A stretch of DNA of 64,000 nt from a virus, in the IMG/VR virus record IMGVR_UViG_3300028590_000015, positions 1 to 64,000 of that record; one strand, given 5' to 3'. The notes beneath the pieces were generated by a model, which had not been told where the DNA came from, ran no database searches, and saw only the letters and a program-made list of their open reading frames with translations. The position numbers and the translations under genes are program-made. Shown piece after piece: positions 6,124-57,500 of this stretch (the first letter of the stretch is position 1; every line of letters begins with the position of its first letter).

Positions 6124-6368
6124 TGCACCCTCGGCTTCGTGAAGCGGTCGAACTCGACGCCGGGTTGCATGCTTCGCAACTGAGCTTCGATGAAGCCGCG
6201 TGCGAACTCAGTTCCGAGGGTGCCCCACATCGCCCCCATGAAAACGGCAAGCACGCCCGTGATGTGGGCTTCGAGTGCTTCCCGATCATTCGTTGGGATG
6301 CGCTGGACCGCATCCATGGCGAATGCCAGTCCCGCCTTCACCTTCTCATCAGGGAGTTGCCGGTTCAT
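6120..6368 (-). CDS. Hypothetical small protein (82 aa)
   Basis: Coupled overlaps; helical composition. Confidence 0.55.
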   Translation of the reverse strand: MNRQLPDEKVKAGLAFAMDAVQRIPTNDREALEAHITGVLAVFMGAMWGTLGTEFARGFIEAQLRSMQPGVEFDRFTKPRVQ

Positions 6369-7501: not shown

Positions 7502-7510
7502 GGCCACCGC

Positions 7511-41899: not shown

Positions 41900-42196
41900 A
41901 TGGCCATCCTTGAAACCTTCGAGAAGCAGCCGGGCGAGATCCGAGCGTTCGACATCGACTATGCCGAGTACCTGGCGCGCAACGGCACCAGCGCGCGCGC
42001 AGTGGACCCGATCGAATACCAGATCCAGGAAGGCATCACGCTGGTTGCTGCGCTCTGGGTGGACGAGGGCGGTTTCGTGAAGCTCTATTTCGATCGCGGC
42101 GTACATCGGAAGAAATACAAGGCCACGGTCTGGCTCAACACGGCCGGCGGCGAGCGTCTCGAAGCCGACATCGTGATCAAGGTCAAGGACTCATGA
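41900..42196 (+). CDS. Hypothetical protein (98 aa)
   Basis: ATGA-coupled to holin-like gene. Confidence 0.5.
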   Translation: MAILETFEKQPGEIRAFDIDYAEYLARNGTSARAVDPIEYQIQEGITLVAALWVDEGGFVKLYFDRGVHRKKYKATVWLNTAGGERLEADIVIKVKDS

Positions 42197-42624
42197 GCAC
42201 CACGCACCCCACTTCCACGATTCACAACCACAGCCGGACCAAAGCCATGTCTGAACCAGCATCTTCCTCTGCAGCCGCCGGGTTTGCCGCCTACAAGCTC
42301 GCCGTGGCGTTCGGCGTGCCGGCCGGCCTCGCCGCAATCGTCGTCATGCTCTGGGTACAGCCCAAGAGCAAGCGCGAGTGGGCCATGGCCCTGATCGTCA
42401 CCGTCGTGTCCAGCCTGTGCGGAGGGGCCTGGGTGATCGAGTACTTCAAGCTGCAGCACCTCGCTGCCGGCGGGCTCCACGGCCTGATGGCCATGGGCGG
42501 GCTCATCTTTGCCTGCGGCATGCCGGGCTGGGTGATCGTGCGAGGGTGGTTCGCCTGGGCCGACAAGCGCAAAGCTCTTGACCTTGCTGAGCTGGTGCGT
42601 GATGCGCGGGAGGTGATCAAGTGA
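42193..42624 (+). CDS. Holin-like protein (3 TM)
   Basis: Three hydrophobic helices (AAYKLAVAFGVPAGLAAIVVMLW, AMALIVTVVSSLCGGAWVI, GLMAMGGLIFACGMPGWVIV) and a charged C-terminus. Confidence 0.55.
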   Translation: MSTTHPTSTIHNHSRTKAMSEPASSSAAAGFAAYKLAVAFGVPAGLAAIVVMLWVQPKSKREWAMALIVTVVSSLCGGAWVIEYFKLQHLAAGGLHGLMAMGGLIFACGMPGWVIVRGWFAWADKRKALDLAELVRDAREVIK

Positions 42625-43154
42625 AGCCGATCGCCACCCCAATCCTCGCGGCCATCGACGAGGCCTTCGCCTTCCTGCCGGGGCCGATGGACACGCGCGA
42701 CGCCCGCGTGATGATCTACTCCACGGGCCTGCAGGAAAGCCGCTTCGAGGACCGACGCCAGATCGTCGAGGTGATCGGTCGTGGCGGGAAGGTCGAACTG
42801 CGCCCCACCGGCCCCGCGAAGTCCCTCTACCAGTTCGAGCGCGGGGGCGGGTGCAAAGGCGTGATCCAGCACGACGCCAGCCGCTACTGGATGCACCAGG
42901 CGTGCCAGTGGCGCGGCGTGGAGTTCAACCCCACGGCCCTTTGGAACGCGATTGAGACCGACGACGTGCTGGCCACGTGCGCGGCCCGGTTGCTGTATTT
43001 CACCGACCCGAAGAAGCTGCCGGATGCGAGCGACGAAGAGGGCGGCTGGAAGCTCTACACGCGGACCTGGCGTCCCGGCGCGTTGCAACGCCAGCGCGAG
43101 GAGCTGCGCCAGAAGTGGGCGCGCAACCATGCGCAAGCGAGGGCAATGGCATGA
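42621..43154 (+). CDS. Lysis-cassette protein, possible endolysin (family not recognised)
   Basis: Position between holin-like and spanin-like genes; GTGA-coupled. Confidence 0.4.
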   Translation: MKPIATPILAAIDEAFAFLPGPMDTRDARVMIYSTGLQESRFEDRRQIVEVIGRGGKVELRPTGPAKSLYQFERGGGCKGVIQHDASRYWMHQACQWRGVEFNPTALWNAIETDDVLATCAARLLYFTDPKKLPDASDEEGGWKLYTRTWRPGALQRQREELRQKWARNHAQARAMA

Positions 43155-43465
43155 ACATCGCCCTGGACTACGACGGCACCTACACCGCCGACCCGGCGCT
43201 CTGGGACACCTTCATCCTCTGTGCCCACAACCGCGGTCACCAGGTGCACATCGTGACCATGCGCCACGAGAGCGAGCCCGTTCGCATCGGCGAGCGGCCG
43301 GCGCGCATCCATTACACGGATCGCAAGGCCAAGCGCCCGTTCATGCAGGCCCTCGGCGTCCCGGTGCAGATCTGGATCGATGACATGCCCGATTTCATCG
43401 TCGGCTCGGCCGCTCCTCGCGACCTGCGCGAGAACGCCGTGGTCGGTCTCTGGAGTGAACCATGA
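43151..43465 (+). CDS. Small protein with HAD-like DxDGT motif (104 aa)
   Basis: MNIALDYDGTYT; ATGA-coupled. Confidence 0.45.
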   Translation: MNIALDYDGTYTADPALWDTFILCAHNRGHQVHIVTMRHESEPVRIGERPARIHYTDRKAKRPFMQALGVPVQIWIDDMPDFIVGSAAPRDLRENAVVGLWSEP

Positions 43466-43830
43466 ATCCGATCATGGTCGCCCTGGGCGTGCTCCTGGCC
43501 ACCAGCGTGGCTGGCAATGCGCTGCTGTTCGATGCGCTTGGTGATGCGCGAGACCGCGCAACGCGTGCAGACGCCGGCCGGCGAACCGCCGTCGGTGCGG
43601 CCCAGACCTGCAGCAACTACGTCGGCAAGCTGAGCTTGGACGCGAAAAAGCGTGTCGAAGACGCGAAACCACTGATTGAGGCCTCTGCGGTCGCCGCGAA
43701 AGCCGCCAATGCCCGAGCCGACGGCGAGGTGATGCGCACGCCGGCCGTGCCCGGAAACGCCTGCGCCAGCGCCGAGGCGGAGAACAGGGAGTGGCTGCAG
43801 AAGCGAATGGAGGCCCGCCATGGACGGTAA
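43462..43830 (+). CDS. i-spanin (Rz-like) candidate
   Basis: N-terminal TM (IMVALGVLLATSVAG) then periplasmic charged coiled-coil region. Confidence 0.55.
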   Translation: MNPIMVALGVLLATSVAGNALLFDALGDARDRATRADAGRRTAVGAAQTCSNYVGKLSLDAKKRVEDAKPLIEASAVAAKAANARADGEVMRTPAVPGNACASAEAENREWLQKRMEARHGR

Positions 43831-44173
43831 GTGGGGTTCTTGGCGGATGCTTCCGCTGGCCATCGTTGCGCTCTTCGCGCTGTATTGGCGGTACATCGTT
43901 GCGGTCGCGGCTGTTGTGCTGCTGGTGGTGTCGCTCGCGGGCTGCGAAACCATTCCGGAGATCGTGGAGGTGCGCGTTCCCATCGCTGTGCGGTGCGAGG
44001 TTGCGATGCCTGTGCGCCCCCGCATGGACACCGAACACCTGCCCCTCGATGCAAAGGTAGATGTGCAGTCCCGCGCCATGCGGGCCGAGATCGAGCGTCG
44101 GGAGGGCTACGAGGGCGAGCTTCGCACCGCGCTCGACGTGTGCACGGCCCCCTCATCCCCCCTGGAGCACTGA
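43820..44173 (+). CDS. o-spanin (Rz1-like) lipoprotein candidate, start overlaps i-spanin gene
   Basis: Signal peptide with lipobox LAGC (VVSLAGCET); Pro-rich. Confidence 0.5.
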   Translation: MDGKWGSWRMLPLAIVALFALYWRYIVAVAAVVLLVVSLAGCETIPEIVEVRVPIAVRCEVAMPVRPRMDTEHLPLDAKVDVQSRAMRAEIERREGYEGELRTALDVCTAPSSPLEH

Positions 44174-44174
44174 C

Positions 44175-45050
44175 ATGGGTCAAAAATTCACCAACAACGC
44201 CCGATCGCGCCTTGTGGGCGCGCTGAGTGGTTCGGCCACGAGTTTTACGGTCGAGGCCTCTACCGCCGACCTTTTCCCGATCGCCAACACCCCGAACTGG
44301 CTTGCGTCGGTTGACTGGTTCAAGGCCACGATCGAGAACAGCTTGGGTCAGGTTGAAATCGTGAAGGTAGGGGTGCGCAGCCTTGGCAGTGGCGTGTTCT
44401 CGAACGTCCTCCGCGCTCAGGACGGCACCAGCGCGATCGCTTTCGACGCCGGGTCGGTGGTCGGACTGCGCTTCACCTCGGCGGATCTGCAGTCCATTTT
44501 CGATTCGTTCGAGACCATGGTGCAGATCACCGGCGACCAGAGCATCAACGGGGTCAAGACCTTCCTGCAAAAGGTCGTGGGCGACCTGCAGGGTAAAGCC
44601 GACACGGCCGGGCACGCCGATACCGCGGATGCATCAGAGGCAGCGGAAACGGCTGAAACGGTGACGGGCACGGTTGCCGATGGCGCCGTGGCCACGACCC
44701 AGGCCGCCAAGGACGCCACGCACAAGGTGGCCACCAATGCCTTCGTGGACCGCATGCGCTCGATGCACGCGAGCACGAACGCGGCCACCTTGGTGATTTC
44801 TGATCGCGGCTCGGTGGTGCGCCGTGCCGCCGCCACCACGGTACCGGCGGGCGTGTTTGCCCAGGATGACGTGGTCACGATCAAGAACACGAGCGGGACG
44901 CCGTTCAACGTGATCGCCGGCGCGGGGATGACCCTGATTCGCGCGGGCACCACGACCATCGGCTCTTTTTCGCTTGGGGCCAACGGCCTCGTGACGATCC
45001 TGTTTGACAGCGCGGGCCAGGCCACCTACAGCGGGGCCGGGGTTTCCTGA
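44175..45050 (+). CDS. Tail-fibre-like protein
   Basis: 291 aa; ...ITGDQSINGVKTF (G-x-KTF tail-fibre motif); Thr/Ala/Gly-rich. Confidence 0.6.
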   Translation: MGQKFTNNARSRLVGALSGSATSFTVEASTADLFPIANTPNWLASVDWFKATIENSLGQVEIVKVGVRSLGSGVFSNVLRAQDGTSAIAFDAGSVVGLRFTSADLQSIFDSFETMVQITGDQSINGVKTFLQKVVGDLQGKADTAGHADTADASEAAETAETVTGTVADGAVATTQAAKDATHKVATNAFVDRMRSMHASTNAATLVISDRGSVVRRAAATTVPAGVFAQDDVVTIKNTSGTPFNVIAGAGMTLIRAGTTTIGSFSLGANGLVTILFDSAGQATYSGAGVS

Positions 45051-45904
45051 TGGCCGGCATTCATGCCATGTTGCTGGGCACTGGAGACATCTTTGTCTTC
45101 AAGCACTACATCGCGGCCCACCTCACCAACTACAACGTGCGGGACTACGCGACAGCGGCCGGGTGGAACGGTGTGCGCCCGCTGTTTGCCGACATCGAGA
45201 TCGCTCCCGGCTACTACCTGAGCGCGAGCGACCCCAGTGTCTACGCCTTCCACACGAGCAACGGCTACCCGCCGGGATCAATCATCCGATTGAAGAATCG
45301 CGGCTTCATCATCGGCGCCGGCGGCTATGGCGGCCGTGGATCTGCAAACCAAAGCGGAGCGGGATGGGGAGGCGGCGGTGGCGGCCCGGCTCTTGGCGCG
45401 GGCTGGTACATCACCATCGACAACACCGGCGGAACCATCGGCGGCGGTGGTGGCGGCGGTGGCGGTGGCCAGGGCGTCTCCGTCCAATTCCCGATCGATC
45501 CAAAACTGGGCGGTGGATCTGCAGAGTACCGGGCAGCCGGTGGCGGAGGTGGCGGCGGGCGATCGAACCTGGCCATGAACACGGCGCCAGGCTCCGGTGG
45601 CTGGAGCGCAGGCGCATCAGCTCCTGCCAGCGGCGGCGATGGAGCCACTGGCTACTACACCGGTGCCGGTGGGGGTGGAGGCGGCGGGAATTCGGGTGGC
45701 ATGGCATTCGGCGGCGCCGGCGGAAGCGGCGGCTCCTGGGGCACCAACGGAGGCAATGGCGGCAGCGGAAGCTGGGTTGGTGGAGCGTCCTCCGCCGGCG
45801 GCTATGGCGGGCCCTATGCCGGCGGCCCAGGTGGCCCCGCCGTGCAAGGCAATTCCCTCATCACATGGGTTGCCGCTGGCACCCGACTCGGAGCACTCCT
45901 ATGA
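45050..45904 (+). CDS. Glycine-rich protein (poly-Gly tracts)
   Basis: Runs of up to 10 Gly (GGGGGGGGGQG; GGGGGGG) interspersed with YTGAGGGGGGG units; ATGA-coupled to the fibre-like gene. Confidence 0.6.
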   Translation: MAGIHAMLLGTGDIFVFKHYIAAHLTNYNVRDYATAAGWNGVRPLFADIEIAPGYYLSASDPSVYAFHTSNGYPPGSIIRLKNRGFIIGAGGYGGRGSANQSGAGWGGGGGGPALGAGWYITIDNTGGTIGGGGGGGGGGQGVSVQFPIDPKLGGGSAEYRAAGGGGGGGRSNLAMNTAPGSGGWSAGASAPASGGDGATGYYTGAGGGGGGGNSGGMAFGGAGGSGGSWGTNGGNGGSGSWVGGASSAGGYGGPYAGGPGGPAVQGNSLITWVAAGTRLGALL

Positions 45905-46206
45905 AGAATTTCACCTTCGTCATCACCCGCGTGGACGAGGCCGCGCGCTGCATGGACGTTGTCTATACGGCTGATGGCTACGAGGCTGTGCCGGTGGGCG
46001 TGCGTGCACCCGTTGAGGGCGAAGACCTCAACGAGGTTATCGCTCGCGCAGCTCCGTTCTTTGTCTGGGACGAAATCGACCGCGCACGCGCCCCGCTGGT
46101 GCTCCCAGAGGTGGGCACCACTGGACGGATCGAGGCTCCGCCCCCGCAAGAGGTAGTGCGTGCGGAACCTCCGCCGGAAATCATCATGCGCCGGGTGACC
46201 CTGTGA
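45901..46206 (+). CDS. Hypothetical protein (101 aa)
   Basis: ATGA-coupled. Confidence 0.5.
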   Translation: MKNFTFVITRVDEAARCMDVVYTADGYEAVPVGVRAPVEGEDLNEVIARAAPFFVWDEIDRARAPLVLPEVGTTGRIEAPPPQEVVRAEPPPEIIMRRVTL

Positions 46207-46721
46207 CCGACTTCGTAAACACCAAGGCCAAGGCCTTCGGGTGGGTCATCCACCGCAAGCTGATCGCGCCTGGCGAGACCTACCGCGCGAGCGTGCTCGA
46301 AGACACGCTGCCCAAGGACAGCGAGAACATCACTCTCTGGACCAAGGGACATCTGGTGGGCACGCGTGAGGACGGCTACATCCCCCCACCTCGGCGCGCA
46401 GGCGATTTCAGCCTGGAGCGCCAGATGATGCCCAAGGGCGTCTACACGTTCACCGCCCTGGAAGCGAGCGAGTGGTGGTGCATCAACTGGCGCGCGAACC
46501 GTCACGCACTGCCCGCGGTGTTGCCGCTGCGCCTGGCGGCCGGGGAACAGCGGGCGCTGCGCGCCAGCACCCTGCTGCTCGTGTGCTCTGGCGCCCTTGA
46601 AACGCAGTCGGGGGAGCTTGGTCCAGGCACAGAGGTCGTGGTGGGCGCGGCTGGCGCGACTGTGCGCGCATCGCGCGCTGGTCCTGTTTTTGGCCTGTTT
46701 TTCGAGAAGGAGCGATCATGA
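46203..46721 (+). CDS. Hypothetical protein (172 aa, GTG start)
   Basis: GTGA coupling. Confidence 0.5.
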   Translation: MTDFVNTKAKAFGWVIHRKLIAPGETYRASVLEDTLPKDSENITLWTKGHLVGTREDGYIPPPRRAGDFSLERQMMPKGVYTFTALEASEWWCINWRANRHALPAVLPLRLAAGEQRALRASTLLLVCSGALETQSGELGPGTEVVVGAAGATVRASRAGPVFGLFFEKERS

Positions 46722-47437
46722 GGCACGCCGCCTGGATGTCCACCTGCGCCTACTACGTGGGCCTGCTGTTCCTGTTCACGATGCCACTGCGTGACCCTGG
46801 CTGGGTGTCCTGGCTCCCAGTGCTGCTGGCGATTCAGATCGTTGGAGGCCTCACGATCAGCGTGGGCTACCACCGCCTGTTCTGCCATCAGGCTTTTCAG
46901 GCCGCGCGCCCTTGGCACTGGCTGTTTGCGTTCCTGGGTATCTACTACTGGTACGGGTCGCCCTCACAGTGGAGGCCCACCCACACCGCGCACCACGTGC
47001 ACAGTGACACCCCCCTGGACCCACACCCATCCGGCCCCCGCGCGCTGCTGACGAAGGCCTACAACGACGTGCCATTGGACGTGTGGTGCCTGCGGCGCCT
47101 CTGGCGAACTGACCCCACGCTGCATGCGTTGGTGGACCTGTTGTATGTGCCCATCGCCCTCCTGATGATCGCGGTGATGGCCTGGATCTCACCCACGTTC
47201 CTGACCATGGCTTACCTGCCCGCGCTGGGTGTGGCGCATCTGGTCGGCGCCATCCACAACACGTTCAGCCACTGGCCCAACGGACCGCGCGACATCTGGT
47301 GGATGGAATTGATTGCGCCGGCCGGCGGTGAGTGGCTGCATGCCACGCACCACGCCAATCCTGGTCGCGTGAGTTTCCGAACGCGCTGGTACCACATTGA
47401 CCCGGGCGCCGCGCTCATCCGTTTGATTCGTTCTTGA
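46718..47437 (+). CDS. Membrane fatty-acid desaturase (stearoyl-CoA/acyl-lipid delta-9 type, three His boxes)
   Basis: GYHRLFCH (box 1), HTAHHVHSDTPLDPH (box 2; cf. SCD HRxHHxxSDTDxDPH), HATHHANP (box 3); four hydrophobic segments. Confidence 0.8.
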   Translation: MRHAAWMSTCAYYVGLLFLFTMPLRDPGWVSWLPVLLAIQIVGGLTISVGYHRLFCHQAFQAARPWHWLFAFLGIYYWYGSPSQWRPTHTAHHVHSDTPLDPHPSGPRALLTKAYNDVPLDVWCLRRLWRTDPTLHALVDLLYVPIALLMIAVMAWISPTFLTMAYLPALGVAHLVGAIHNTFSHWPNGPRDIWWMELIAPAGGEWLHATHHANPGRVSFRTRWYHIDPGAALIRLIRS

Positions 47438-47491
47438 ACAGGGAAATGGCAGCGGCCCTGACTCTCTCGCTGCCGAAATTGGAGAAAACTC

Positions 47492-47734
47492 ATGAAGATC
47501 GTTGCAACCGACAAGCGCCTGCGCGTGGACTTCAAGGTCAAGGGCAAGCAGTACGACCCGTCCGCCGCGTCCGAAGGCCAGCCCGGCACGAACAACGCGA
47601 CCTACTCGACCTATCCCTTCGACTCCGTCGACGTGGAGATCGGCAAGGAATTCGACCAGTCCGGCGTCGATGTGGTCCGCATCGTCGAATACACCGAACA
47701 CGCCGAGCAGAGCACCTTCCCCACCGGCGAGTAA
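47492..47734 (+). CDS. Hypothetical small protein (80 aa)
   Basis: GGAGAA SD. Confidence 0.5.
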   Translation: MKIVATDKRLRVDFKVKGKQYDPSAASEGQPGTNNATYSTYPFDSVDVEIGKEFDQSGVDVVRIVEYTEHAEQSTFPTGE

Positions 47735-47765
47735 CCCGCGCCACCAGACCTCCAGGGAGTAGCCC

Positions 47766-49790
47766 ATGACCGTTCTGGCCATCAAGGGATTCCGTGGCGC
47801 TGTGCCTCGGTACAGCTCACGCCTGCTGCAGCCCAACCAGGCGCAGCGGGCCTGGAACTGTCGCATCACATCCGGGCGCCTGGACCCGATCAAGGGTCCG
47901 GGCCTCGTCTTTTCTTCCACATTGGCGTCGGACATCCGCACCATGTATCGCTACCGCCACTTCGTTGGTGGAGCGCCGCTGGACAACTGGCTGATCTGGG
48001 CCTCCGATGTGGACGTGCAGCTTTCGCCGCTCGCCAACGACGAGCGAGGCGTTTTCTATTTCACATCCGAGACCTTCGAGCCTCGGGTGTCCTCCTACGC
48101 GCACGCGATCGCGGGCGCTGTCTATCCGAACGCATGGTTTGCGCTCGGGGTTCCCAGCCCGACGGTCGCACCAACTGTGACGCCGTCTGGAGGCACTGCC
48201 GCCGACGAGGAGCGCTCCTACGCCATCACCTTCGCTACTGCCTGGGGCGAAGAGTCGGGGCCGAGCCCGGCATCTGCGCTCGCCACCGGGAAGCCCGACG
48301 GCACATGGGCCCTCAGCAACCTGCAGACGGCACCGCCAAACGGCGGCGCCATCGTGGGCGCGGTGGCCGACAGCCCTGTGGATGGCCAGGTCACGGTGGA
48401 GCTGGATACCGTGTTCGGGCTGGCCGCCCACGAGTCCATCACCGTCAGTGGGGTGGGGGGCATGACCAGCCTGAACACTACGCATCGAATTCTGTCGATC
48501 AACGTGGCCACCAAGAAGGTGGTGGTGAAGCTCGATACGGCCCAGACCTACACCAGCGGTGGCGCCTGGGCTCGCGAGAGCCCGTTGAACACCACGGGCA
48601 TGGTGAAGCGGATCTACCGCACGGCTGGCACGAACCCGGCATTCCTGTTCGCGGCTGAGATCCCTGTCGCGGATACGACCTACAACGACACGGTGCCGGG
48701 CACGATGCTGGGTGAGGTGCTGCCCACCCTTCTGACGCTTCCGCCGCCGAAAAACCTCACCTGCCTGACGCGGCTGCCCAATGGGTGCATGGTCGGCCTG
48801 GCTGGCAATGAGCTGTGCCTGAGTGACCCATATCGTCCGTATTCCTGGCCCATCGGCAATCGCTACAGCTTTTCGGGGCGTGGAGTGGCGCTGTGCGTGG
48901 CTGGAACTTCGGTGATCGTGCTCACCGACAGCTACCCCATCCTTTTTACCGGGAGCGACCCCGAGGTTATGAGCCCGAGCACCATGGAGACTTATGCGCC
49001 GTGCGTGTCCAAGCGCGGCTCGGTCAACGTGGGCGGGGGCAGCATCTACCCCAGCTTCGACGGCCTTTGGCTGGCCACTCCGGCCGGTGTGAAGAAGCTG
49101 ACCCAGAACCTCTACCGCGACAAGGAGTGGGGCGAGCTCAACCCCGTCACGTTCGATGCGGCCTTTCACGACGGCCAGTATTACGCTCAGTACAGCGCCA
49201 ACGACGCGCGCGCACGCATCTGGGTGCTTGATGTGTCGGAGCCGGACAGCACGACCGAGATCGATGAGCAGGTTGGCGCGCTCTACCGGAACGAGTACGA
49301 CGGGCTGCTCTACGTCGCCAAGGGCGCCAAGGTGTTCCAGTGGGATGCCGACAACGGCATGCGCTACGAGTCGGACTGGATGAGCAGGGTGAACCAGTTG
49401 GCCAAGCCTACGACGTTCAACTGCGCCCAGGTGTTCGCTGATTTCAGCGACATCGTGCCGATCGACACAGCGCAGCAGGAGGCGAATGCAGCCTTGCAGC
49501 TCACGCCCATGATGGGCGGTGGGCAGATGGCCGGGCTGGAGATCGGGGTCGCCGAGGTCAATGGCTCGCTGCTGACCCCCATCGTGGTGCAGACCCAGCG
49601 CAAGGTGCAGTTCACCCTCTACCTCAAGGACGTGCCGATCTTCACGAAGTCGGTCACCAGCCAGAAGCCGTTTCGGCTGCCCACGGGGTACAAGGCCGAG
49701 CTGTTCGCAGTGCAGTTGTCGGCCTCGGTGCCCACCTACTCGGTGGCGATGGCAACCTCGATGGAGGAACTCAAGCAGGTGGCGCCATGA
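47766..49790 (+). CDS. Large virion structural protein (674 aa)
   Basis: Size, Thr/Ser/Gly-rich beta composition, SD GGGAG. Confidence 0.6.
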   Translation: MTVLAIKGFRGAVPRYSSRLLQPNQAQRAWNCRITSGRLDPIKGPGLVFSSTLASDIRTMYRYRHFVGGAPLDNWLIWASDVDVQLSPLANDERGVFYFTSETFEPRVSSYAHAIAGAVYPNAWFALGVPSPTVAPTVTPSGGTAADEERSYAITFATAWGEESGPSPASALATGKPDGTWALSNLQTAPPNGGAIVGAVADSPVDGQVTVELDTVFGLAAHESITVSGVGGMTSLNTTHRILSINVATKKVVVKLDTAQTYTSGGAWARESPLNTTGMVKRIYRTAGTNPAFLFAAEIPVADTTYNDTVPGTMLGEVLPTLLTLPPPKNLTCLTRLPNGCMVGLAGNELCLSDPYRPYSWPIGNRYSFSGRGVALCVAGTSVIVLTDSYPILFTGSDPEVMSPSTMETYAPCVSKRGSVNVGGGSIYPSFDGLWLATPAGVKKLTQNLYRDKEWGELNPVTFDAAFHDGQYYAQYSANDARARIWVLDVSEPDSTTEIDEQVGALYRNEYDGLLYVAKGAKVFQWDADNGMRYESDWMSRVNQLAKPTTFNCAQVFADFSDIVPIDTAQQEANAALQLTPMMGGGQMAGLEIGVAEVNGSLLTPIVVQTQRKVQFTLYLKDVPIFTKSVTSQKPFRLPTGYKAELFAVQLSASVPTYSVAMATSMEELKQVAP

Positions 49791-49978
49791 AACCAGCCCT
49801 GGAACATCCGAAAACTGGCGCCGTGGCCCTCGATCGTTTTTGCTCGAACGTGAAGCAGATCCTTGACGACATCACCGGCCAGTCTCGGAAACTCAAGCGG
49901 TTGCAGCCGCTTCCCGCCGATGCGACCTTGCCGCAGGTGATCGAGCGGTTGAACGAGGTGCTGTCCCGGCTGCAGTAG
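49787..49978 (+). CDS. Hypothetical small protein (63 aa)
   Basis: ATGA-coupled. Confidence 0.45.
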   Translation: MKPALEHPKTGAVALDRFCSNVKQILDDITGQSRKLKRLQPLPADATLPQVIERLNEVLSRLQ

Positions 49979-49985
49979 GCCGGGG

Positions 49986-50001
49986 CCGTTGACTCCGAGG
50001 G
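49986..50001 (+). promoter_or_regulatory. Conserved late-region 16-mer CCGTTGACTCCGAGGG (copy 3)
   Basis: Followed by two hairpins (CTTCCGGGGC..GCCCGAAGG; GGCCCAC-G-GTGGGCC) then the GTG of the 50055 gene. Confidence 0.55.
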
Positions 50002-50054
50002 CTTCCGGGGCAAAGTTGCCCGAAGGCCCACGGTGGGCCTCTTCGAGGGCCGCT

Positions 50055-50654
50055 GTGACCGTTTCCGCTATTCGTCAGGCACTGGTCGAGCACCTTGGGA
50101 AGGTGCTCACGCCGGACATCGCCATGGCTCTGGAAATGGCTGCTGTGGCCCCGGAAGACCGAAGCATCGACCCCCGCAGTTTCGGTCAACACCAGCATGG
50201 GGACTACACGATCGCCGCGGAGCGCTTCGCAAGCATCGTGGACGAGCTGCACCCGCTGCACGAGGTCCACTGGCTTGAAACCGAGCATTACCGACACGGC
50301 CTTGCGCTGCGGCCGGACTATGCCGGGATGGCCGCCCTGGAGCGCAACGGCCGCGCCATCCAGTTCACTGTGCGCCACGCTGGCCAGCTCGTTGGGAACC
50401 TGCGCGTCTACCTGGGCACGAGCTTGCACACGCAGACCCCCTATGCGAGCGAAGACACCTTGTTTCTGCTGCCCGAGCACCGGGGCGGTTTCCTCGTGCT
50501 CGCGCTCATCAAGTTTGCCGAGGACGCCTTGCGCGCCATCGGGATCGACGAGTTCCGCGTGAACAGCAAGTTGGTCAACAACGCCGACGTGCTCATGCGC
50601 CGGCGCCGCTACACCCCTGCGGCGCTTCAGTTCGTCAAATTCTTCCAGGAGTGA
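50055..50654 (+). CDS. GNAT-fold acetyltransferase-like protein (tentative; start uncertain)
   Basis: LFLLPEHRGGFLVLALIKFAEDALRAIGIDEF resembles GNAT motif A. Confidence 0.45.
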   Translation: MTVSAIRQALVEHLGKVLTPDIAMALEMAAVAPEDRSIDPRSFGQHQHGDYTIAAERFASIVDELHPLHEVHWLETEHYRHGLALRPDYAGMAALERNGRAIQFTVRHAGQLVGNLRVYLGTSLHTQTPYASEDTLFLLPEHRGGFLVLALIKFAEDALRAIGIDEFRVNSKLVNNADVLMRRRRYTPAALQFVKFFQE

Positions 50655-50658
50655 AGCC

Positions 50659-51450
50659 ATGTGCTCCGACGCACCAGACCAGAGCGGCGTGAACGCCGCA
50701 GCCATCGCGAACGCGGAGATCTCAAAGGAGGCGCTTGACTTCTACAAGCAGGTGTACGCGGAGCAAGCGCCAGCCCGAGCGGAAGCTGCCGCCGTGGCCA
50801 AAGAAGTCTCGCAGCGCCAGTTGGAGAGTTCCAAGCTCAACGACGAGATCAGCAAGGACTACTGGGACTACCAGAAAAACACGTTCCGGCCACTGGAAGA
50901 AGGCATCGTGGCGGAGGCTCAGGCCTATGACACGGCGGAGCGGCGCGAGGCCGAAGCGGGCACTGCAGTGGCCGATGTTGGAATGCAGGCCCAGGTGGCG
51001 CGCGATGCTCAGACTCGGCAACAGCAGCGCATGGGCGTGAATCCGAACAGCGGGGCTGCGGTCTCAATGCAGAACGTCTTGAGCATTGGAGACGCGGCTG
51101 CCAAGGCGGGAGCCGCTGGTGCAGCGCGCAAGAACGTGGAAACGGTTGGTCGTGCGATGAAGATGGACGCGGCCAGCCTGGGCCGCAATCTCGCATCGAG
51201 CCAAGCCACCAGCGCCAGCGTGGCGCTGAGTGCCGGCGACAGAGCGGTAGTCAACGCCAGCGCTCCACAACAACAAGCACAGAGCGCCGCGAGCATGATG
51301 GGGCAGGGGTTTCAAACCAGCATCAACGGCAACTCGTCGGCGGGGCAACTGTTTGGCCAAGCCGCCAATGCCCAGGCAGGCGCGGACGCGGCAAACGGCC
51401 AGGCTCTTGGCGGCTTGGCGGGCGCGGGCATGATGGCCGTGGCCATCTGA
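50659..51450 (+). CDS. Hypothetical virion/internal protein (263 aa), Ala/Gln-rich
   Basis: Low-complexity coiled-coil-like composition. Confidence 0.5.
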   Translation: MCSDAPDQSGVNAAAIANAEISKEALDFYKQVYAEQAPARAEAAAVAKEVSQRQLESSKLNDEISKDYWDYQKNTFRPLEEGIVAEAQAYDTAERREAEAGTAVADVGMQAQVARDAQTRQQQRMGVNPNSGAAVSMQNVLSIGDAAAKAGAAGAARKNVETVGRAMKMDAASLGRNLASSQATSASVALSAGDRAVVNASAPQQQAQSAASMMGQGFQTSINGNSSAGQLFGQAANAQAGADAANGQALGGLAGAGMMAVAI

Positions 51451-51461
51451 TCGGAGCCGCC

Positions 51462-52877
51462 ATGCAAAGCAGCTACGAGGTTTCGGTCAACGCAGCCACG
51501 CGCGCGGCAGTCGCGAGCGGCATTAACGTGCTCAACGCCTACCTGTTTGGCCAGACGGAGACGGAGCATGTCGCCCGGCTGCTCGACATGATGGACCCTC
51601 CGCCTGGCGCGGTGGTGATCGATGCAGGCTGCGGCGTCGGCGCGGTCGCCGAGGTCATGGCGCAGTTTCGGTCGGACCTACAGTTTGTCCTCGTGAACTC
51701 GAATGCCGAGCAGTTGGCGCGGTGTCCGGCCAGGATGCAGCAGCACCTGTGCAGTTTCGATCAGATGCCGCTCGACGACTGCAGCGCCGATGTGGTGATG
51801 TTCCATTTCTCGATCTGCCACGCGGAAAACTGGAGCGCGGCCGCGCGCGAGGCGTGGCGCGTGCTCAAACCCGGCGGCCTGCTGTTCATCAACGACATGC
51901 AGCGCATGCGCGGCGACAACACGCTTCTGGCCCACACGTTGAAGGCCTACGCGCACCCTGCTGGGGCCGTCGAAGAGGCCGCGCAGCGATGCGGTTTCGA
52001 GCTGGATGCGCTGATCGAGCCAGCACCCGTGGTGGAGCGACTGGCGCAGGCCCTCGATTCGCCTGCCTGGGCAACGGCGCTGCTGTCGGACGTGGCGCCG
52101 GCCGTGTGGCGCTTCACCAAGGCCGTGGCGGCCGGGCCCGTTGCATCAGCCTTCGCGCGCCATCGCCGCATCGGCTTCCAGTTCTCGGGCGGCCGTGACT
52201 CCACCGCGGCGCTGTACCTGCTGCGCCCTTACTGGGATCGCATGACGGTCTACCACCTGGACACCGGCGATCAGTTTCCTGAGACGCGGGCTGTGGTCGA
52301 GGCGGTCGAGCGCGATATGGGGAAACCCATGACGCGGATCGCCGGTGATGTGGAGGCGGTGCGCGAGCAATACGGGCTGGCCACTGACCTGCTGCCCGTC
52401 GACAACACCGCGCTGGGGCGCATGGTTTCCGGCAAGTCCGTGAAACTCATCAGCCGATTCGACTGCTGCTACCTGTCGCTCATGAAGCCAATGCAGGCCC
52501 GCATGGTTGCCGACGGCATCACCCTCGTGGTTCGTGGTCAGCGCGACGACGAGTACCACCAGCCGCCGCTGCGATCCGGCGATGGCGAGGGCGGCATTGA
52601 GGCGCTCTATCCCATTCAGGACTGGACGGGCGACGAAGTCTCGGCATACCTCGTGGCCCGAGGTCTTCCGCTCGCCCCGTTTTACGAGCGCGGCGCGCGC
52701 CGAGCGCCAGAGTGCATGGGGTGCACGGCCTGGTGGGACGAGGGCCGTGCCGCCTACCTGCGCAAATGGCATCCAGTCGCGTTCACCCAGTACCAGCAGC
52801 GCATGGGCGTCGTGAAGAACCAGATCCACCAGCAATACGCCGTCTTGATGGCGGCCGAAAAGGAGACCCAGCCATGA
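51462..52877 (+). CDS. Fusion protein: class-I SAM-dependent methyltransferase (N) + PAPS-reductase-family PP-loop ATP pyrophosphatase (C)
   Basis: N: VVIDAGCGVGAVAEVMAQ (motif I), LKPGGLLFIND. C: FQFSGGRDSTAALYLL (SGGxDS PP-loop) and C-terminal CMGC (CysH/DndC-like family). Confidence 0.75.
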   Translation: MQSSYEVSVNAATRAAVASGINVLNAYLFGQTETEHVARLLDMMDPPPGAVVIDAGCGVGAVAEVMAQFRSDLQFVLVNSNAEQLARCPARMQQHLCSFDQMPLDDCSADVVMFHFSICHAENWSAAAREAWRVLKPGGLLFINDMQRMRGDNTLLAHTLKAYAHPAGAVEEAAQRCGFELDALIEPAPVVERLAQALDSPAWATALLSDVAPAVWRFTKAVAAGPVASAFARHRRIGFQFSGGRDSTAALYLLRPYWDRMTVYHLDTGDQFPETRAVVEAVERDMGKPMTRIAGDVEAVREQYGLATDLLPVDNTALGRMVSGKSVKLISRFDCCYLSLMKPMQARMVADGITLVVRGQRDDEYHQPPLRSGDGEGGIEALYPIQDWTGDEVSAYLVARGLPLAPFYERGARRAPECMGCTAWWDEGRAAYLRKWHPVAFTQYQQRMGVVKNQIHQQYAVLMAAEKETQP

Positions 52878-54529: not shown

Positions 54530-57500
54530 ATGAACCTCGAAGAAGCCCGCAAGCGCCTGCCCGAACTCGAAGGGCTGAGCGACCCCGCTGCGATCGATGT
54601 GATCCACGAGGTCTACTACCCGCAGATGGACAAGGCCAAGCTGGCGGGCAAGTTGGGCTACAAGGCCCCGCCGGCGCCCGCGCCAGAGCGCAGCACCATG
54701 CGCGCCGCAGGCGACTTAGCGCTGCAGTTCGGTGGTGGTGCCGTGTCTGGTGTGCGCATGATGTCCGACTTGCTGGGGGCGAACAACGCGGTGTCGGGCA
54801 CGCTGCGCAACGCCGAGGACGCCCTGCAGAAACTCCAGAGCGCGGCTGCGCAGGCCGACCAGCAGCAGATCGCCGCCATCATGAAAGAGGCCGAAAGCAA
54901 GGGCTTCGTGGACCAGGTGCTGGCGGGGGTCAAGGCATTCGGCGTGGCGCCTGCGGCAATGGTTGCTCAAGCCCTGGGCACTTCGCTGCCCACCCTGGCC
55001 ACAGCAGCCATTCCAGGCGCTGGGCCCATGGCACTGGCGGCGCGCCTTGGCGCGGCAGGTGCGGTGGGCGCAGGGCAGGGCGCGGGCAACATCAAGGGCG
55101 TCATCTACGACCAGGTGAAGGCAAACCCACTGCCGGGTGAGGCGCCCGAACAGACCGAGGCCCGCGCCGTGGACGCGCAGTCCTACACCGGAGAAAACGC
55201 CGATCAGATCGCGCTGGGCGGTGGCCTTGGCCTGCTCGCTGGTGCCACGGGTATGGAGCGGGCCGTCGGCGCTCTGCGAAACGGTGTCGCGAAGGCCGCG
55301 CCCGGCATGGCCGCGCGCGTGGGCCTCGGCGCCGCTGGCGAAGCCGTGCCGGAGGCCCTGCAGGGTGGCCAGGAGAAGCTGGCGGGCAACCTGGCGCTCG
55401 GCCGCGAGGGGTTCGATGTGGACCCCATGTCGGGCGTCGTGGCCGGCGGCACGATGGAGGCGCTGGCCGGCGGCGTAATGGGTGGCGCAACGGCGCTTCC
55501 TCGACCCGCAGTGCGCACGCCCGACCCGATTTCCCAGGCCGGCGACGCCATTCGATCGGCTGAGGTGGTGCCGGAGTCGGGCCCGATGACCCGCGCGGCC
55601 AACGTGGCCACCGAGATGAAGGCGCAGCAAGCTGAGGCCGACGTCGCTGCGCAGGTGGCCGCGATCGAGCCTGCCGAACCTGCGCCGGTGCCAGCACAGC
55701 CAGTGGCCGACGATCCGGTGGCGCAGCCCGTCGCCGCTGTCTCGCCGGTTGAAGCCGCGCCGGTGGACGCCTCGGACGCTGCCCAAGAGCAGCGGGCCAA
55801 CAACGCGCTGGCCAGCATGGAGCGCCAGGCGCAACGCGACATGCAGAGCATGCGCGATTTCAGCCGGACCACGCCTGCCACCAGCGATGTGCCCGATCCG
55901 TTCGCCGACGTGCCGGTGGCCGGCGGTGCGCCCGCGGCTGCCGCGTCGGGGGATGTCCTGAATCCCAAGGGCGAGCCTTTCAAGACCAGGATGGCTGCGC
56001 AACGTGCCACCAAGAAGACCCCTGGCGATGTCGTGCCCGTCGCGGGCGGCTTCGTCGTTCGCCCAACCATCTCCCAGGATCTCGCCAGTGAGCCCACCCA
56101 AGGAACCCCAGATGCAGCCGCTGTCGCGCCGTTTGACGCGGGCGCAGCGCCGGCAGTGGAGCCCGGTGCCGGGCCCGATGCGGGAGAAGCTGGCGCTGCA
56201 GCGCTTGTTCGACCGGCCGAGCCCGAGCAGCCTGCGGCACTGATCGCGCAGGCCCCTGCCATGCCTGCCGCTGAAAGCGACTGGCAGGTCTTCCCAGCCG
56301 ACACCGAGACGCTCAACGTGCCGCGCGCCGAGATGCCGCAGATCAAGGCCGCGCACCGCGGCGCGATGGTCAATTTCCTCAAGGCCCGAGGTATTGAGCA
56401 CGAGGCCGACGAGGTGGCGGCCAACACGCTCAAGCCCACCCAGGCCGAGTTTTCAATCTCCAAGGTGAAGAAGGCCCAGGACTTCGGCGACCCCGATCGT
56501 TCCATCCTGGTGTCGGCCGACGGCTACGTGGTCGATGGCCACCACCAGTGGATTGCGCGCGGAGCCAACGGCGCCAGCGTCAAGGTGATCCGCCTCAAGG
56601 CTCCGATCTCCGAGCTGCTGCCCGCGGTGCGCGAGTTTCCCAGCTCCACCGTCGATGAAACGACAGCCGATGTCCAGAACGCAACGCAAGAGCCCGCAGG
56701 GGAAGCGGCCCAAGCCGCGAACACTGAAACGACAGCGCCAGCGGGAAGCGATGGAGCCGCCACCGAAGGAGTTTCCCCAGAGGGAAGTTCCCCCGTGGAA
56801 GCCGCTGGGGTGAAGGATGGGGCAGCGCCCGAGTCGGACGCCGCCCACCCCCCGCAGGCGGATGCGTCGCCTCCTCAACAAACCGGCCAGGCTCCTGAGC
56901 CCGAACCCGAGCAGCGCACGCCGGAAAAGGTGGTGGCGCGGCGTAAGCGCCTGATCGCTGAACGCAAGGCCTCCGAGATTGCCTCACCAGCCCAAGAAGC
57001 AACGAAGGAGGCGCCTGCAACGGAGGCGCCCGCCCCATCGAAGCCGAAGGCGAAGCGGCAGACGGCGGCCTCGCGCCAGGCGGAAGCAGAGGCCGCGCGC
57101 GCCGGCTATTTCACCCCTGGTCACGTGGTGCGCGGTTACGGTGGCTTCGATGAGGTGTTGGCGTACAACCCAACAGACGGCGGCGGGTTCAGCGTGACCG
57201 TGCATGAGGTGAAGCGCGTGGGAGACGAATGGCACCGCGTCGGCAAGCCGCAGGACGCGCGCACGCACAGCACGCAGCCCGAGGACCGGCTGCTCAAGAA
57301 CGGCCCATTCGCGCGCCTGTCCTACCGTCGCGCTGGCGAGGTGGTCTACACCAGCCCGCGCGCTGATGGCCAGCCGTTCCCGAATGCCGTTGATCGAGGT
57401 GTCGCGCCGCCTGCGGAGAAGGTCGCCGAGCCTGATCCAGCACCAGCCCCGAAGGCTGAACGAGCGGCCGCTCCAAAGAGCGCCGCACCGGTCAAGATCG

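What the first reader, a model, noticed from the sequence alone, without database searches (positions are those of the whole stretch)
46718..47437. Membrane fatty-acid desaturase gene embedded among tail-fibre and lysis genes
The translation carries the three histidine boxes of di-iron membrane desaturases in the stearoyl-CoA desaturase arrangement (GYHRLFCH; HTAHHVHSDTPLDPH; HATHHANP), with hydrophobic segments between them. It is GTGA/ATGA-coupled into the late structural operon downstream of a tail-fibre plus Gly-rich pair. A lipid desaturase is an atypical phage cargo gene. It could act as an auxiliary metabolic or lysogenic-conversion gene altering membrane fluidity, or modify lipid A/LPS acyl chains during infection.
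Basis: partly seen in the sequence, partly recalled or inferred. Interest (0 to 1): 0.6.

Follow-up and report, generated by a model that had tools for sequence, protein, structure and literature searches.

The report
Phage mini-desaturase with cupin partner
The gene is a real, stripped-down membrane fatty-acid desaturase carried by a temperate phage; phage desaturases are already known, but this one belongs to a large, uncharacterised phage-borne group that almost always travels with a small cupin-fold partner gene at the end of tail-fibre gene modules.

Summary
Observation confirmed. ORF 46718-47437 (+, 239 aa) carries HRLFCH / HTAHH / HATHH plus a fourth HNTFSH motif. Its model (pLDDT 95.6) has the stearoyl-CoA desaturase (SCD1) fold, and a family profile matches SCD1 over its full length (E 3.8e-12). 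All SCD1 metal ligands are conserved in 53 relatives.

The window is a nearly complete temperate Bcep22-like podophage. The gene is the last of five translationally coupled genes: tail fibre, GP38-like Gly-rich adhesin, a 101-aa protein, a 172-aa cupin-fold protein, then the desaturase.

The new point is the context. In 53 of 64 dereplicated phage lineages (GC 34-69 %; T7-like, Bcep22-like and siphovirus backbones) the cupin gene lies directly upstream of the desaturase, usually overlapping it. The pair always follows tail-fibre genes. Desaturase and cupin distances co-vary (r 0.75); desaturase and adhesin distances much less (r 0.34).

Close relatives are absent from 50,697 phage isolate records and nearly absent from 185,579 reference genomes. 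More than 200 viral contigs carry related short forms.

Most likely it is an O2-dependent acyl-chain desaturase acting with the cupin partner on host membrane lipid late in infection. The physiological role is unresolved: membrane fluidity or lysis support, or exclusion. Own promoter, foreign composition and recent host origin are not supported. I rate it a new variant of a known kind, of moderate interest.

The parts
44175..45050 (+). Tail fibre protein (291 aa), first gene of the coupled five-gene block
   Evidence: PHROG tail fibre families phrog_8469 (E 1.9e-17) and phrog_30299. Syntenic with Bcep22 tail fibre genes gp64-66. Its stop overlaps the next start (TGATG).
45050..45904 (+). GP38-like glycine-rich adhesin (284 aa)
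   Evidence: Orthologues in related loci carry PF05268 GP38. An HMM built from them hits this ORF at E 3.2e-88. phrog_10745 matches at E 7e-11. No direct Pfam hit for the window copy.
45901..46206 (+). 101-aa protein 'p2' that co-inherits with the GP38-like adhesin (inferred adhesin chaperone)
   Evidence: ATGA overlap with the adhesin gene. Homologues lie at the same place in 21 of the 64 dereplicated lineages scored. Its distances track those of GP38 (r 0.79). No Pfam or PHROG hit.
46203..46721 (+). 172-aa cupin-fold partner protein, directly upstream of the desaturase in 53 of 64 lineages
46718..47437 (+). Minimal SCD-type membrane di-iron desaturase (239 aa): the finding
   Evidence: His boxes are H52/H57, H89/H92/H93 and H208/H211/H212, with N181/H185 in TM4. 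A Shine-Dalgarno-like AAGGAG lies 7 nt before the ATG.
47492..47734 (+). 80-aa protein downstream, shared only with the closest relatives of the cassette
   Evidence: Homologues in L005 (71 % identity) and in the siphovirus-type locus L006 (47 %) at the same position; absent from more distant loci. No family hit.
47766..49790 (+). Bcep22 gp67-like internal virion protein: the backbone gene that bounds the cassette
   Evidence: phrog_511 at E 1.2e-126. tblastn hits Bcep22, DC1 and BcepIL02 gp67. Synteny with Bcep22.

Best explanation
The gene encodes a catalytically competent, minimal (239 aa) stearoyl-CoA-desaturase-type membrane enzyme. It has four transmembrane helices and a cytoplasmic di-iron site. 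I infer that it uses O2 and a host electron donor to put a cis double bond into a saturated acyl chain (acyl-CoA or membrane glycerolipid) of the infected cell. I also infer that it acts as a two-protein unit with the 172-aa cupin-fold protein encoded immediately upstream. The partner carries no conserved metal site, so it more likely docks substrate or an electron donor, replacing the N-terminal, C-terminal and cap segments that the phage enzyme lacks relative to SCD1. The pair is transcribed with the late tail-fibre genes, so its product would change membrane lipid unsaturation during virion assembly and lysis. It is an old phage-borne accessory unit that sits in the slot after tail-fibre genes and is passed between unrelated phages, not a recent capture from the host. 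Shown: the fold, the ligand set, the pairing, the placement and the distribution. Inferred: the chemistry, the substrate, the physical complex and the benefit to the phage.
For: SCD1 fold and ligands: model pLDDT 95.6; Foldseek finds SCD1 structures 4zyo, 4ymk and 6wf2 at probability 1.00, TM 0.71-0.76; the family profile matches SCD1 at E 3.8e-12 with N181/H185 aligned to the SCD1 TM4 Asn/His. Ten His residues are invariant in 53 relatives, and nine of the ten (all but H180) stay invariant in 58 further, far more distant short homologues. 40 of 53 members hit PF00487 and 52 of 53 hit the DesA-family model weakly. Partner: adjacent in 53 of 64 lineages dereplicated at 90 %; overlapping stop and start in 7 of the 8 loci examined, the 4-nt ATGA form in five of them; distances co-vary at r 0.75, against 0.34 for desaturase versus adhesin. 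Placement: the genes upstream are tail fibre or central-fibre proteins in every locus annotated. The module occurs in T7-like, Bcep22-like and siphovirus backbones and in an apparently integrated prophage flanked by host housekeeping genes (L027). Locus GC ranges from 34 to 69 %. No own promoter or terminator and no composition anomaly; GC3 is 0.82, like the neighbours. Not host-derived recently: only 2 close hits in 185,579 species genomes, both on MAG contigs that carry the same cassette, while the nearest cellular proteins are about 30 % identical and longer. Precedent for active phage delta-9 desaturases: PMC5776448.
Against: No activity, substrate or regiospecificity data exist for any member. 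The window protein itself gets no Pfam hit and only 18.8 bits against the DesA model, whose cutoff is 400. Cellular SCD-type desaturases need no cupin partner, so the partner's role is a guess. I could not run a complex prediction. No electron donor gene was identified in the window, and I did not search for one systematically. A plain fluidity function does not explain why the pair so consistently follows tail-fibre genes. Eleven of 64 lineages, the most divergent ones, were scored as lacking an adjacent partner; they often carry a second desaturase paralogue instead.
Confidence: 0.5

Rival explanations
1. A receptor-masking or superinfection-exclusion unit tied to the receptor-binding module. 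The pair alters a lipid-anchored envelope component, such as lipid A or another outer-membrane lipid made at the inner membrane. Phages using the neighbouring fibre or adhesin, including progeny meeting cell debris, then adsorb or inject less well. This would be analogous in logic to Cor (phi80, HK022) or Llp (T5), which are encoded next to receptor-binding genes (from my own knowledge of those systems).
For: The pair sits at the 3' end of tail-fibre or adhesin modules in every annotated locus. It moves with them between phage backbones. The window phage is temperate, with an integrase at 238-1272.
Against: Desaturase distances track the adhesin poorly (r 0.34), whereas adhesin and p2 track each other at 0.79. 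The pair follows quite different fibre types, with or without a GP38-like protein (24 of 64 have one). So it does not look matched to one receptor. An acyl-chain double bond is buried in the bilayer, which makes it an unlikely recognition determinant. There is no own promoter for expression in the lysogen, and no PADLOC defence hit.
Confidence: 0.2
2. The fold is the same but the chemistry or substrate differs. The enzyme is a hydroxylase, decarboxylase (UndB-like) or other di-iron oxidase acting on a non-phospholipid substrate, with the cupin partner presenting that substrate. In some phages it would be one step of a short pathway.
For: The membrane di-iron superfamily performs many reactions from one scaffold (established knowledge). 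Many loci add a second, distinct short desaturase paralogue, a conserved ~234-aa protein with His-rich motifs in 24 loci, or a radical-SAM enzyme, which suggests multi-step chemistry. The family is shortened relative to SCD1 in the cytosolic cap that binds CoA.
Against: The closest sequence and structure matches are all delta-9 acyl desaturases. The HHxxSDTxxDPH signature of that clade is kept. The window itself has none of the extra enzymes.
Confidence: 0.15
3. A tail-fibre maturation factor. The membrane enzyme and the cupin protein are needed to fold, modify or assemble the fibre or adhesin, as enzymes sometimes moonlight in fibre attachment (T4 gp63; my own knowledge).
For: Strict placement after fibre genes and their small chaperone-like genes. 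Translational coupling with them in the window.
Against: An integral membrane enzyme with a lipid-type active-site tunnel has no known protein substrate. The full catalytic ligand set is conserved, which argues for lipid-type catalysis rather than a scaffold role. It co-varies weakly with the adhesin. No cultured phage among 50,697 records needs such a gene.
Confidence: 0.07
4. A decaying or non-catalytic remnant carried along with the mobile fibre cassette.
For: The window copy falls below all curated family thresholds.
Against: All metal ligands are invariant across lineages spanning 34-69 % GC. The ORF is intact with a good ribosome-binding site, and the model is highly confident.
Confidence: 0.03

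Closest known systems
Mammalian stearoyl-CoA desaturase 1 (PDB 4ZYO, 4YMK, 6WF2)
   Same: Same fold: four TM helices and a cytosolic di-iron domain. Same three His boxes with identical box 1 to box 2 spacing. Same TM4 Asn/His ligands and the same HHxxSDTxxDPH signature.
   Different: About 19-20 % identity. The phage protein lacks the roughly 50-70-residue N-terminal extension. It has about 23 fewer residues between box 2 and box 3 and about 30 fewer after box 3. It has an extra invariant His180. It is encoded with a cupin partner. The electron donor is unknown.
Bacterial delta-9 desaturases (Pseudomonas DesA family, NCBIfam NF049918; 310-350 aa cellular homologues in Bradyrhizobium, Tepidisphaeraceae and others)
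   Same: Nearest cellular sequences, at 25-31 % identity over residues 30-239. 52 of 53 family members hit the DesA model.
   Different: Scores are far below the equivalog cutoff (18.8 against 400 bits). The cellular proteins are 70-110 residues longer and have no cupin partner upstream.
Cyanophage vFAD (DesC-like delta-9 acyl-lipid desaturases; Roitman et al., PMC5776448) and Arctic brine viral FADs (PMC7300359)
   Same: Phage-encoded SCD/DesC-class desaturases with intact His boxes. They are interpreted, and for vFAD shown, to desaturate host membrane lipid.
   Different: Those are described as host-derived AMGs that cluster with host DesC or bacterial FADs. The present family has no close cellular counterpart. 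It gave no cyanophage hit at E <= 1e-3. It is shorter, and it is tied to a cupin partner and to tail-fibre modules, a context not reported in those papers or found in my literature searches.
Pelagibacter phage Mosig putative FA_desaturase domain protein (MT647606.1, 216 aa)
   Same: The only cultured-phage relative (24.5 % identity, E 2e-5; family profile E 3e-22). It is also a short form and also sits directly after a cupin-fold gene (Asp_Arg_Hydrox).
   Different: It lies in a cluster of LPS- or redox-type metabolic genes of a T4-like phage, not after tail fibres. Its neighbouring cupin shows no sequence similarity to the partner here.
RBP-adjacent exclusion genes (cor of phi80/HK022/N15, llp of T5)
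   Same: Non-structural genes placed beside receptor-binding genes and exchanged with them.
   Different: Those are small outer-membrane or periplasmic (lipo)proteins that block a protein receptor (my own knowledge). This is an inner-membrane redox enzyme with a cytoplasmic partner, and it co-varies weakly with the adhesin.

Membership tests
SCD-type (delta-9 'first') membrane di-iron desaturase | Three His boxes HX4H, HX2HH, HX2HH in SCD order and spacing | tested here: met
   HRLFCH at 52-57, HTAHH at 89-93, HATHH at 208-212. Box 1 to box 2 aligns to SCD1 without gaps. Invariant in 53 relatives.
SCD-type (delta-9 'first') membrane di-iron desaturase | Additional TM4 Asn and His metal ligands | tested here: met
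   N181 and H185 align to the NSAAH motif of SCD1 in the profile alignment. H185 is invariant; N181 is present in nearly all sequences shown there but is not in its computed >=90 % list.
SCD-type (delta-9 'first') membrane di-iron desaturase | Four-TM, two-hairpin topology and the SCD1 three-dimensional fold | tested here: met
   AF2 pLDDT 95.6 with helices 5-25, 29-56, 143-157 and 159-183. Foldseek finds SCD1 at probability 1.00, TM 0.71-0.76; the next hit, AlkB, is at E 1.3.
SCD-type (delta-9 'first') membrane di-iron desaturase | Match to Pfam PF00487 FA_desaturase | tested here: not met
   The window protein has no hit at E <= 1. 40 of 53 close relatives do hit, best E 8.6e-11.
SCD-type (delta-9 'first') membrane di-iron desaturase | O2- and electron-donor-dependent insertion of a cis double bond at C9 of an acyl chain | not testable with these tools
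   Needs expression and fatty-acid analysis.
NCBIfam NF049918 DesA family fatty acid desaturase (equivalog) | Whole-protein score at or above the 400-bit cutoff | tested here: not met
   18.8 bits, E 7e-4. The best of the 53 relatives reaches E 1.8e-12.
Host-derived phage AMG desaturase (cyanophage vFAD type) | Close cellular homologue in the host lineage; clusters within host DesC or FAD clades | tested here: not met
   The nearest cellular proteins are about 30 % identical and longer. Only 2 close hits in 185,579 species genomes, both on cassette-bearing MAG contigs. No cyanophage hit.
Classical moron / lysogenic-conversion gene | Own promoter and terminator, atypical base composition, expression from the prophage | tested here: not met
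   No + strand promoter-like or terminator-like site flanks the gene. GC is 0.63-0.65, like the surroundings, and GC3 is 0.82. The start overlaps the stop of the upstream gene. Expression itself was not tested.
RBP-linked exclusion / receptor-masking module (Cor, Llp type) | Adjacent to and co-transferred with the receptor-binding gene | tested here: met
   Follows tail-fibre or adhesin genes in all annotated loci.
RBP-linked exclusion / receptor-masking module (Cor, Llp type) | Specificity matched to the neighbouring receptor-binding protein | tested here: inconclusive
   Desaturase-adhesin distance correlation is only 0.34, against 0.75 for desaturase-partner. The pair occurs with several unrelated fibre types.
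Cupin superfamily metalloenzyme (for the partner 46203-46721) | Double-stranded beta-helix fold | tested here: met
Cupin superfamily metalloenzyme (for the partner 46203-46721) | Conserved His/Glu metal-binding motif | tested here: not met
   Across 20 distinct partners no His or Glu of a metal motif is conserved. The conserved positions are F12, G13, W14, G49, R64, G67, G79, C93, N99, P104, G130 and G164.

The most novel reading that the evidence does not exclude
The cupin protein and the mini-desaturase form a dedicated two-protein phage system whose function is tied to adsorption biology rather than to general metabolism. For example, late in infection it could remodel an envelope lipid so that released virions, or superinfecting phages with the same fibre module, are not wasted on infected cells and debris. 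Alternatively it could supply a lipid product needed by the fibre or adhesin. That would be a new class of tail-fibre-linked accessory function, spread across podo-, sipho- and myo-type phages of many hosts.
Probability: 0.2. Interest if true: 0.75.

Novelty: new variant of a known kind. Interest (0 to 1): 0.5.

Why it matters
Viral desaturases are usually filed as host-derived 'membrane fluidity' AMGs. This case shows a large phage-borne lineage with different properties. More than 200 viral contigs carry related short forms, and 62 clusters at 50 % identity score below E 1e-30 to the family profile. The lineage has no close cellular counterpart, is trimmed to roughly two thirds of the SCD1 length, and in most lineages is paired with an uncharacterised cupin-fold protein. 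It is carried with tail-fibre modules between unrelated phages. If the pair is active, it would be one of the smallest SCD-type desaturases known, which would be useful for structural and mechanistic work. It would also be a testable case of phages editing host membrane lipids at the time of assembly and lysis. The fixed position next to receptor-binding genes raises a question that simple genetics can answer: is lipid remodelling linked to adsorption or exclusion?

Tried and rejected
- Pfam on the window protein gave no hit. PHROGs gave only marginal unknown-function hits. PADLOC gave nothing for the desaturase, partner, p2, adhesin or the 80-aa protein.
- DNA-level search of 44000-51900 against phage isolates found no match. 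tblastn of the partner against phage isolates found no match.
- I tested whether the partner could be a metal-binding or redox cupin serving as electron donor. I rejected this because no His/Glu/Cys cluster is conserved.
- I tested whether the partner is related to the Asp_Arg_Hydrox gene next to the Mosig desaturase, or to the ~234-aa family found downstream in other loci. Neither shows similarity (hmmsearch and hhalign).
- I suspected that the ~234-aa downstream family is an LpxO-like hydroxylase. It has no Pfam hit, and its profile gives only insignificant JmjC hits in PDB.
- The classical moron reading was rejected: no promoter or terminator and no GC shift.
A 10-sequence subset worked.
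- The afdb50 fold library was unavailable.
- Literature searches for a desaturase linked to gp38 or tail fibres returned nothing relevant.
Full report
**1. The observation**

A Shine-Dalgarno-like AAGGAG lies 7 nt before the ATG. The ATG overlaps the stop of the upstream gene (ATGA).

The quoted motifs are present: GYHRLFCH at 50-57, HTAHHVHSDTPLDPH at 89-103 and HATHHANP at 208-215.

GC3 is 0.82, which is typical of real genes in this 65 % GC window. The overlapping ORFs on other frames are the usual high-GC artefacts.

**2. What the protein is**

Curated models barely detect the window copy. Pfam gives no hit at E <= 1. The NCBIfam DesA-family model gives 18.8 bits against a cutoff of 400.

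More sensitive comparisons are unambiguous:
- phmmer against PDB finds human and mouse SCD1 at E 4.5e-5. Box 1 through box 2 aligns without gaps.
- A profile of 53 homologues matches SCD1 over residues 21-234 at E 3.8e-12. It aligns N181/H185 with the TM4 Asn/His that complete the SCD1 metal site.
- An AlphaFold2 model built on that alignment is very confident (pLDDT 95.6, pTM 0.91). It shows two helical hairpins, at 5-56 and 143-183.
- Foldseek against PDB returns only SCD1 structures as significant hits (probability 1.00, TM 0.71-0.76). The next hit, AlkB, is at E 1.3.

Ten histidines are invariant in 53 relatives: 52, 57, 89, 92, 93, 180, 185, 208, 211 and 212. Nine of the ten (all but H180) stay invariant in 58 further short homologues that share only about 30 % identity. 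40 of the 53 relatives hit PF00487, and 52 of 53 hit the DesA model weakly.

Compared with SCD1 the protein lacks three parts: the N-terminal extension, about 23 residues of the cytosolic cap between boxes 2 and 3, and about 30 C-terminal residues.

**3. The genome around it**

The window is essentially one temperate podophage of the Bcep22 (Lessievirus-like) type:
- an integrase at 238-1272 (-), a P22-type portal and a capsid gene;
- a gp67-like internal virion protein at 47766-49790;
- a GNAT acetyltransferase;
- a fused methyltransferase and PAPS reductase;
- a 3080-aa DarB-like giant protein.

These genes are in the same order as in Bcep22.

In Bcep22 the tail-fibre genes run straight into gp67. 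Here five tightly coupled genes occupy that position: tail fibre (44175-45050), GP38-like Gly-rich adhesin (45050-45904), a 101-aa protein 'p2' (45901-46206), a 172-aa protein (46203-46721) and the desaturase. The junctions are TGATG, ATGA, GTGA and ATGA.

No promoter-like or terminator-like site on the + strand flanks the desaturase, and there is no composition shift. It is therefore part of the late operon and not a self-contained moron.

The putative lysis block (42193-44173) lies upstream of the fibre. Its only lysis annotation is a weak Rz-like spanin hit.

**4. Relatives and their contexts: the main result**

The word-indexed protein search found 54 close relatives of 178-255 aa (all but one truncated sequence are 234-255 aa) at 45-100 % identity. 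There is then a gap to 311-317-aa stearoyl-CoA desaturases at about 30 % identity.

Looking up their contigs showed the same cassette in quite different phages:
- a Bcep22-like contig (L005);
- siphovirus-type contigs with a tape measure and a J-like fibre (L006/L007; L029);
- a contig with a 2691-aa fibre next to host housekeeping genes, which is probably an integrated prophage (L027);
- a T7-like phage, where the cassette lies between the T7 tail-fibre gene and the terminase genes (L034).

The ~172-aa protein directly upstream is homologous in all eight contexts examined. Its stop overlaps the desaturase start in 7 of the 8; five have the 4-nt ATGA overlap.

Two scans of IMG/VR added about 90 further loci. 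The second scan reported 217 viral contigs with relatives.

With HMMs for each cassette gene, and after dereplicating the desaturases at 90 % identity, the counts over 64 lineages are as follows:

| Feature | Lineages (of 64) |
|---|---|
| Partner gene directly upstream | 53 |
| GP38-like gene within 2.5 kb | 24 |
| p2 gene | 21 |

The 11 lineages scored as lacking an adjacent partner are the most divergent ones. Many of them carry a second desaturase paralogue in tandem.

Where no GP38-like gene is present, the upstream genes are large tail fibre or central-fibre J-type proteins followed by a ~130-aa unknown.

Locus GC runs from 34 to 69 %. The module is therefore old and has adapted to many hosts.

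Pairwise distances give the following correlations:

| Pair | r | n |
|---|---|---|
| Desaturase and partner | 0.75 | 64 |
| GP38 and p2 | 0.79 | 26 |
| Desaturase and GP38 | 0.34 | 26 |

So there are two co-inherited pairs, adhesin with p2 and partner with desaturase. They sit side by side but are reassorted relative to each other.

**5. Distribution**

- An exhaustive HMM search of 1.84 billion cluster representatives gave 62 clusters at E <= 1e-30 and 2,515 at E <= 1e-10. Nearly all of the top 150 are 230-270 aa.
- Only two of 185,579 species-representative genomes hold a close relative. Both are MAG contigs carrying the partner directly upstream of the desaturase; one (L008) shows the whole cassette.
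- The other genome hits are about 30 % identical cellular proteins, with ORFs up to about 350 aa and no partner.
- Among 50,697 phage isolate records, the only hit is the 216-aa protein of Pelagibacter phage Mosig (24.5 % identity). The partner has no hit at all.

The gene is therefore not a recent host capture. It belongs to a lineage seen almost only in uncultured phages.

**6. The partner**

No cupin metal motif is conserved. The invariant residues are glycines, aromatics, R64, N99, P104 and a single cysteine, C93. It is therefore unlikely to be an oxygenase or an iron-based electron carrier.

From the strict adjacency, the coupling and the co-variation, I infer that it binds the desaturase. 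It may replace the cytosolic parts that the mini-enzyme lacks, for substrate or electron-donor docking. This is an inference, and I had no tool to predict the complex.

**7. How it most likely works**

Shown:
- an SCD1-fold protein with a complete di-iron ligand set;
- co-transcription with late fibre genes;
- a partner gene directly upstream in 53 of 64 lineages;
- presence both in phages of virulent types (T7-like) and in temperate ones.

Inferred: it uses O2 and host reducing equivalents to desaturate saturated acyl chains, either acyl-CoA or membrane lipid. The position is probably delta-9, by analogy with every close structural and sequence relative. This would raise membrane unsaturation while virions are assembled and the cell is prepared for lysis.

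Cyanophage vFADs provide experimental precedent for an active phage delta-9 desaturase (PMC5776448). The Arctic brine study shows that viral contigs can carry several SCD-like genes (PMC7300359).

Why this unit so faithfully follows tail-fibre genes is not explained by a fluidity function alone. There are two possibilities:
- That slot may simply be the accessory-gene hotspot with which fibre modules are exchanged.
- The function may touch adsorption or exclusion. The weak desaturase-adhesin co-variation and the variety of fibre types argue against a receptor-specific role, but they do not exclude a general one.

Lysogenic conversion is not favoured, and LPS or lipid A modification is untested.

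**8. Comparison with what is known, and novelty**

It works like an SCD, DesC or DesA-class desaturase and meets the structural and ligand criteria of that class. It fails the curated sequence thresholds (Pfam and the DesA equivalog) and is not a member of the host-derived cyanophage vFAD groups.

Phage-encoded desaturases as such are known. What I could not find described is this minimal lineage, its cupin partner and its linkage to tail-fibre modules.

I rate it a new variant of a known kind, with interest 0.5. The enzyme class is unsurprising. The conserved two-gene unit and its placement are unexpected and easy to test.

**9. Limits**

- There is no biochemical evidence for any member.
- Substrate, regiospecificity, electron donor and the partner interaction are all inferred.
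- The context statistics rest on metagenomic contigs. The second viral scan kept only the best 80 of 217 hits, so the partner frequency applies to that sample.

Noticed in passing
L056 6729-7529; L093 6651-7442; L110 4445-5236; L116 3977-4750; also L101, L105, L112; L054 5899-9423: Many related viral loci carry a second, distinct short desaturase paralogue in tandem, with motifs GYHKLFAH, HRxHHKYSDT and FLHKHHH. L054 carries three paralogues. This suggests sequential or multi-substrate lipid modification in some phages.
   Followed up: partly
L040 4613-5317; L034 8711-9415; 24 viral loci in all: A conserved ~230-240-aa protein lies directly downstream of the desaturase, sometimes in two copies. 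Its invariant motifs THxGH and NHxAWHSVHN look like an oxygenase site. It has no Pfam hit and only insignificant JmjC similarity. It is absent from the window.
   Followed up: partly
L051 1728-3026 and five other loci (L094, L112, L113, L114, L126): A 432-474-aa radical-SAM protein recurs downstream of the desaturase in six loci, five of which were scored as lacking the cupin partner (L051 has a weak partner hit).
   Followed up: no
L002 (Pelagibacter phage Mosig) 3378-4654: The only cultured-phage relative, a 216-aa short desaturase, also sits directly after a cupin-fold gene (Asp_Arg_Hydrox). It lies within a cluster of aminotransferase, nitroreductase, peroxiredoxin and dioxygenase genes. 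That cupin shows no sequence similarity to the partner here.
   Followed up: partly
window 51462-52877: A single ORF fuses a SAM-dependent methyltransferase domain (residues ~40-155) to a PAPS-reductase domain (~239-414). In Bcep22 the PAPS reductase at the syntenic position is a much shorter gene (729 nt).
   Followed up: no
window 54530-63772: A 3080-aa giant ORF matches the C-terminal parts of DarB-like or giant virion protein families (phrog_11358, phrog_21376). It is syntenic with Bcep22 gp75.
   Followed up: no
window 6365-7507 (-) and 7511-8464 (-): The early region encodes an RdgC domain fused to an FtsK-gamma DNA-binding domain, next to an SPFH/Band-7 membrane protein.
   Followed up: no
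window 45901-46206 and 47492-47734: Two small unknowns flank the pair. The 101-aa p2 co-inherits with GP38-like adhesins (r 0.79) and is probably their chaperone. The 80-aa protein is shared only with the closest cassettes (L005, L006).
   Followed up: partly
window 42193-44173: The presumed lysis block sits between the tail genes and the tail-fibre gene. It is annotated only by unknown-function PHROGs (phrog_1024, phrog_3108, phrog_3580) and a weak Rz-like spanin hit. I did not confirm an endolysin or a holin.
   Followed up: no
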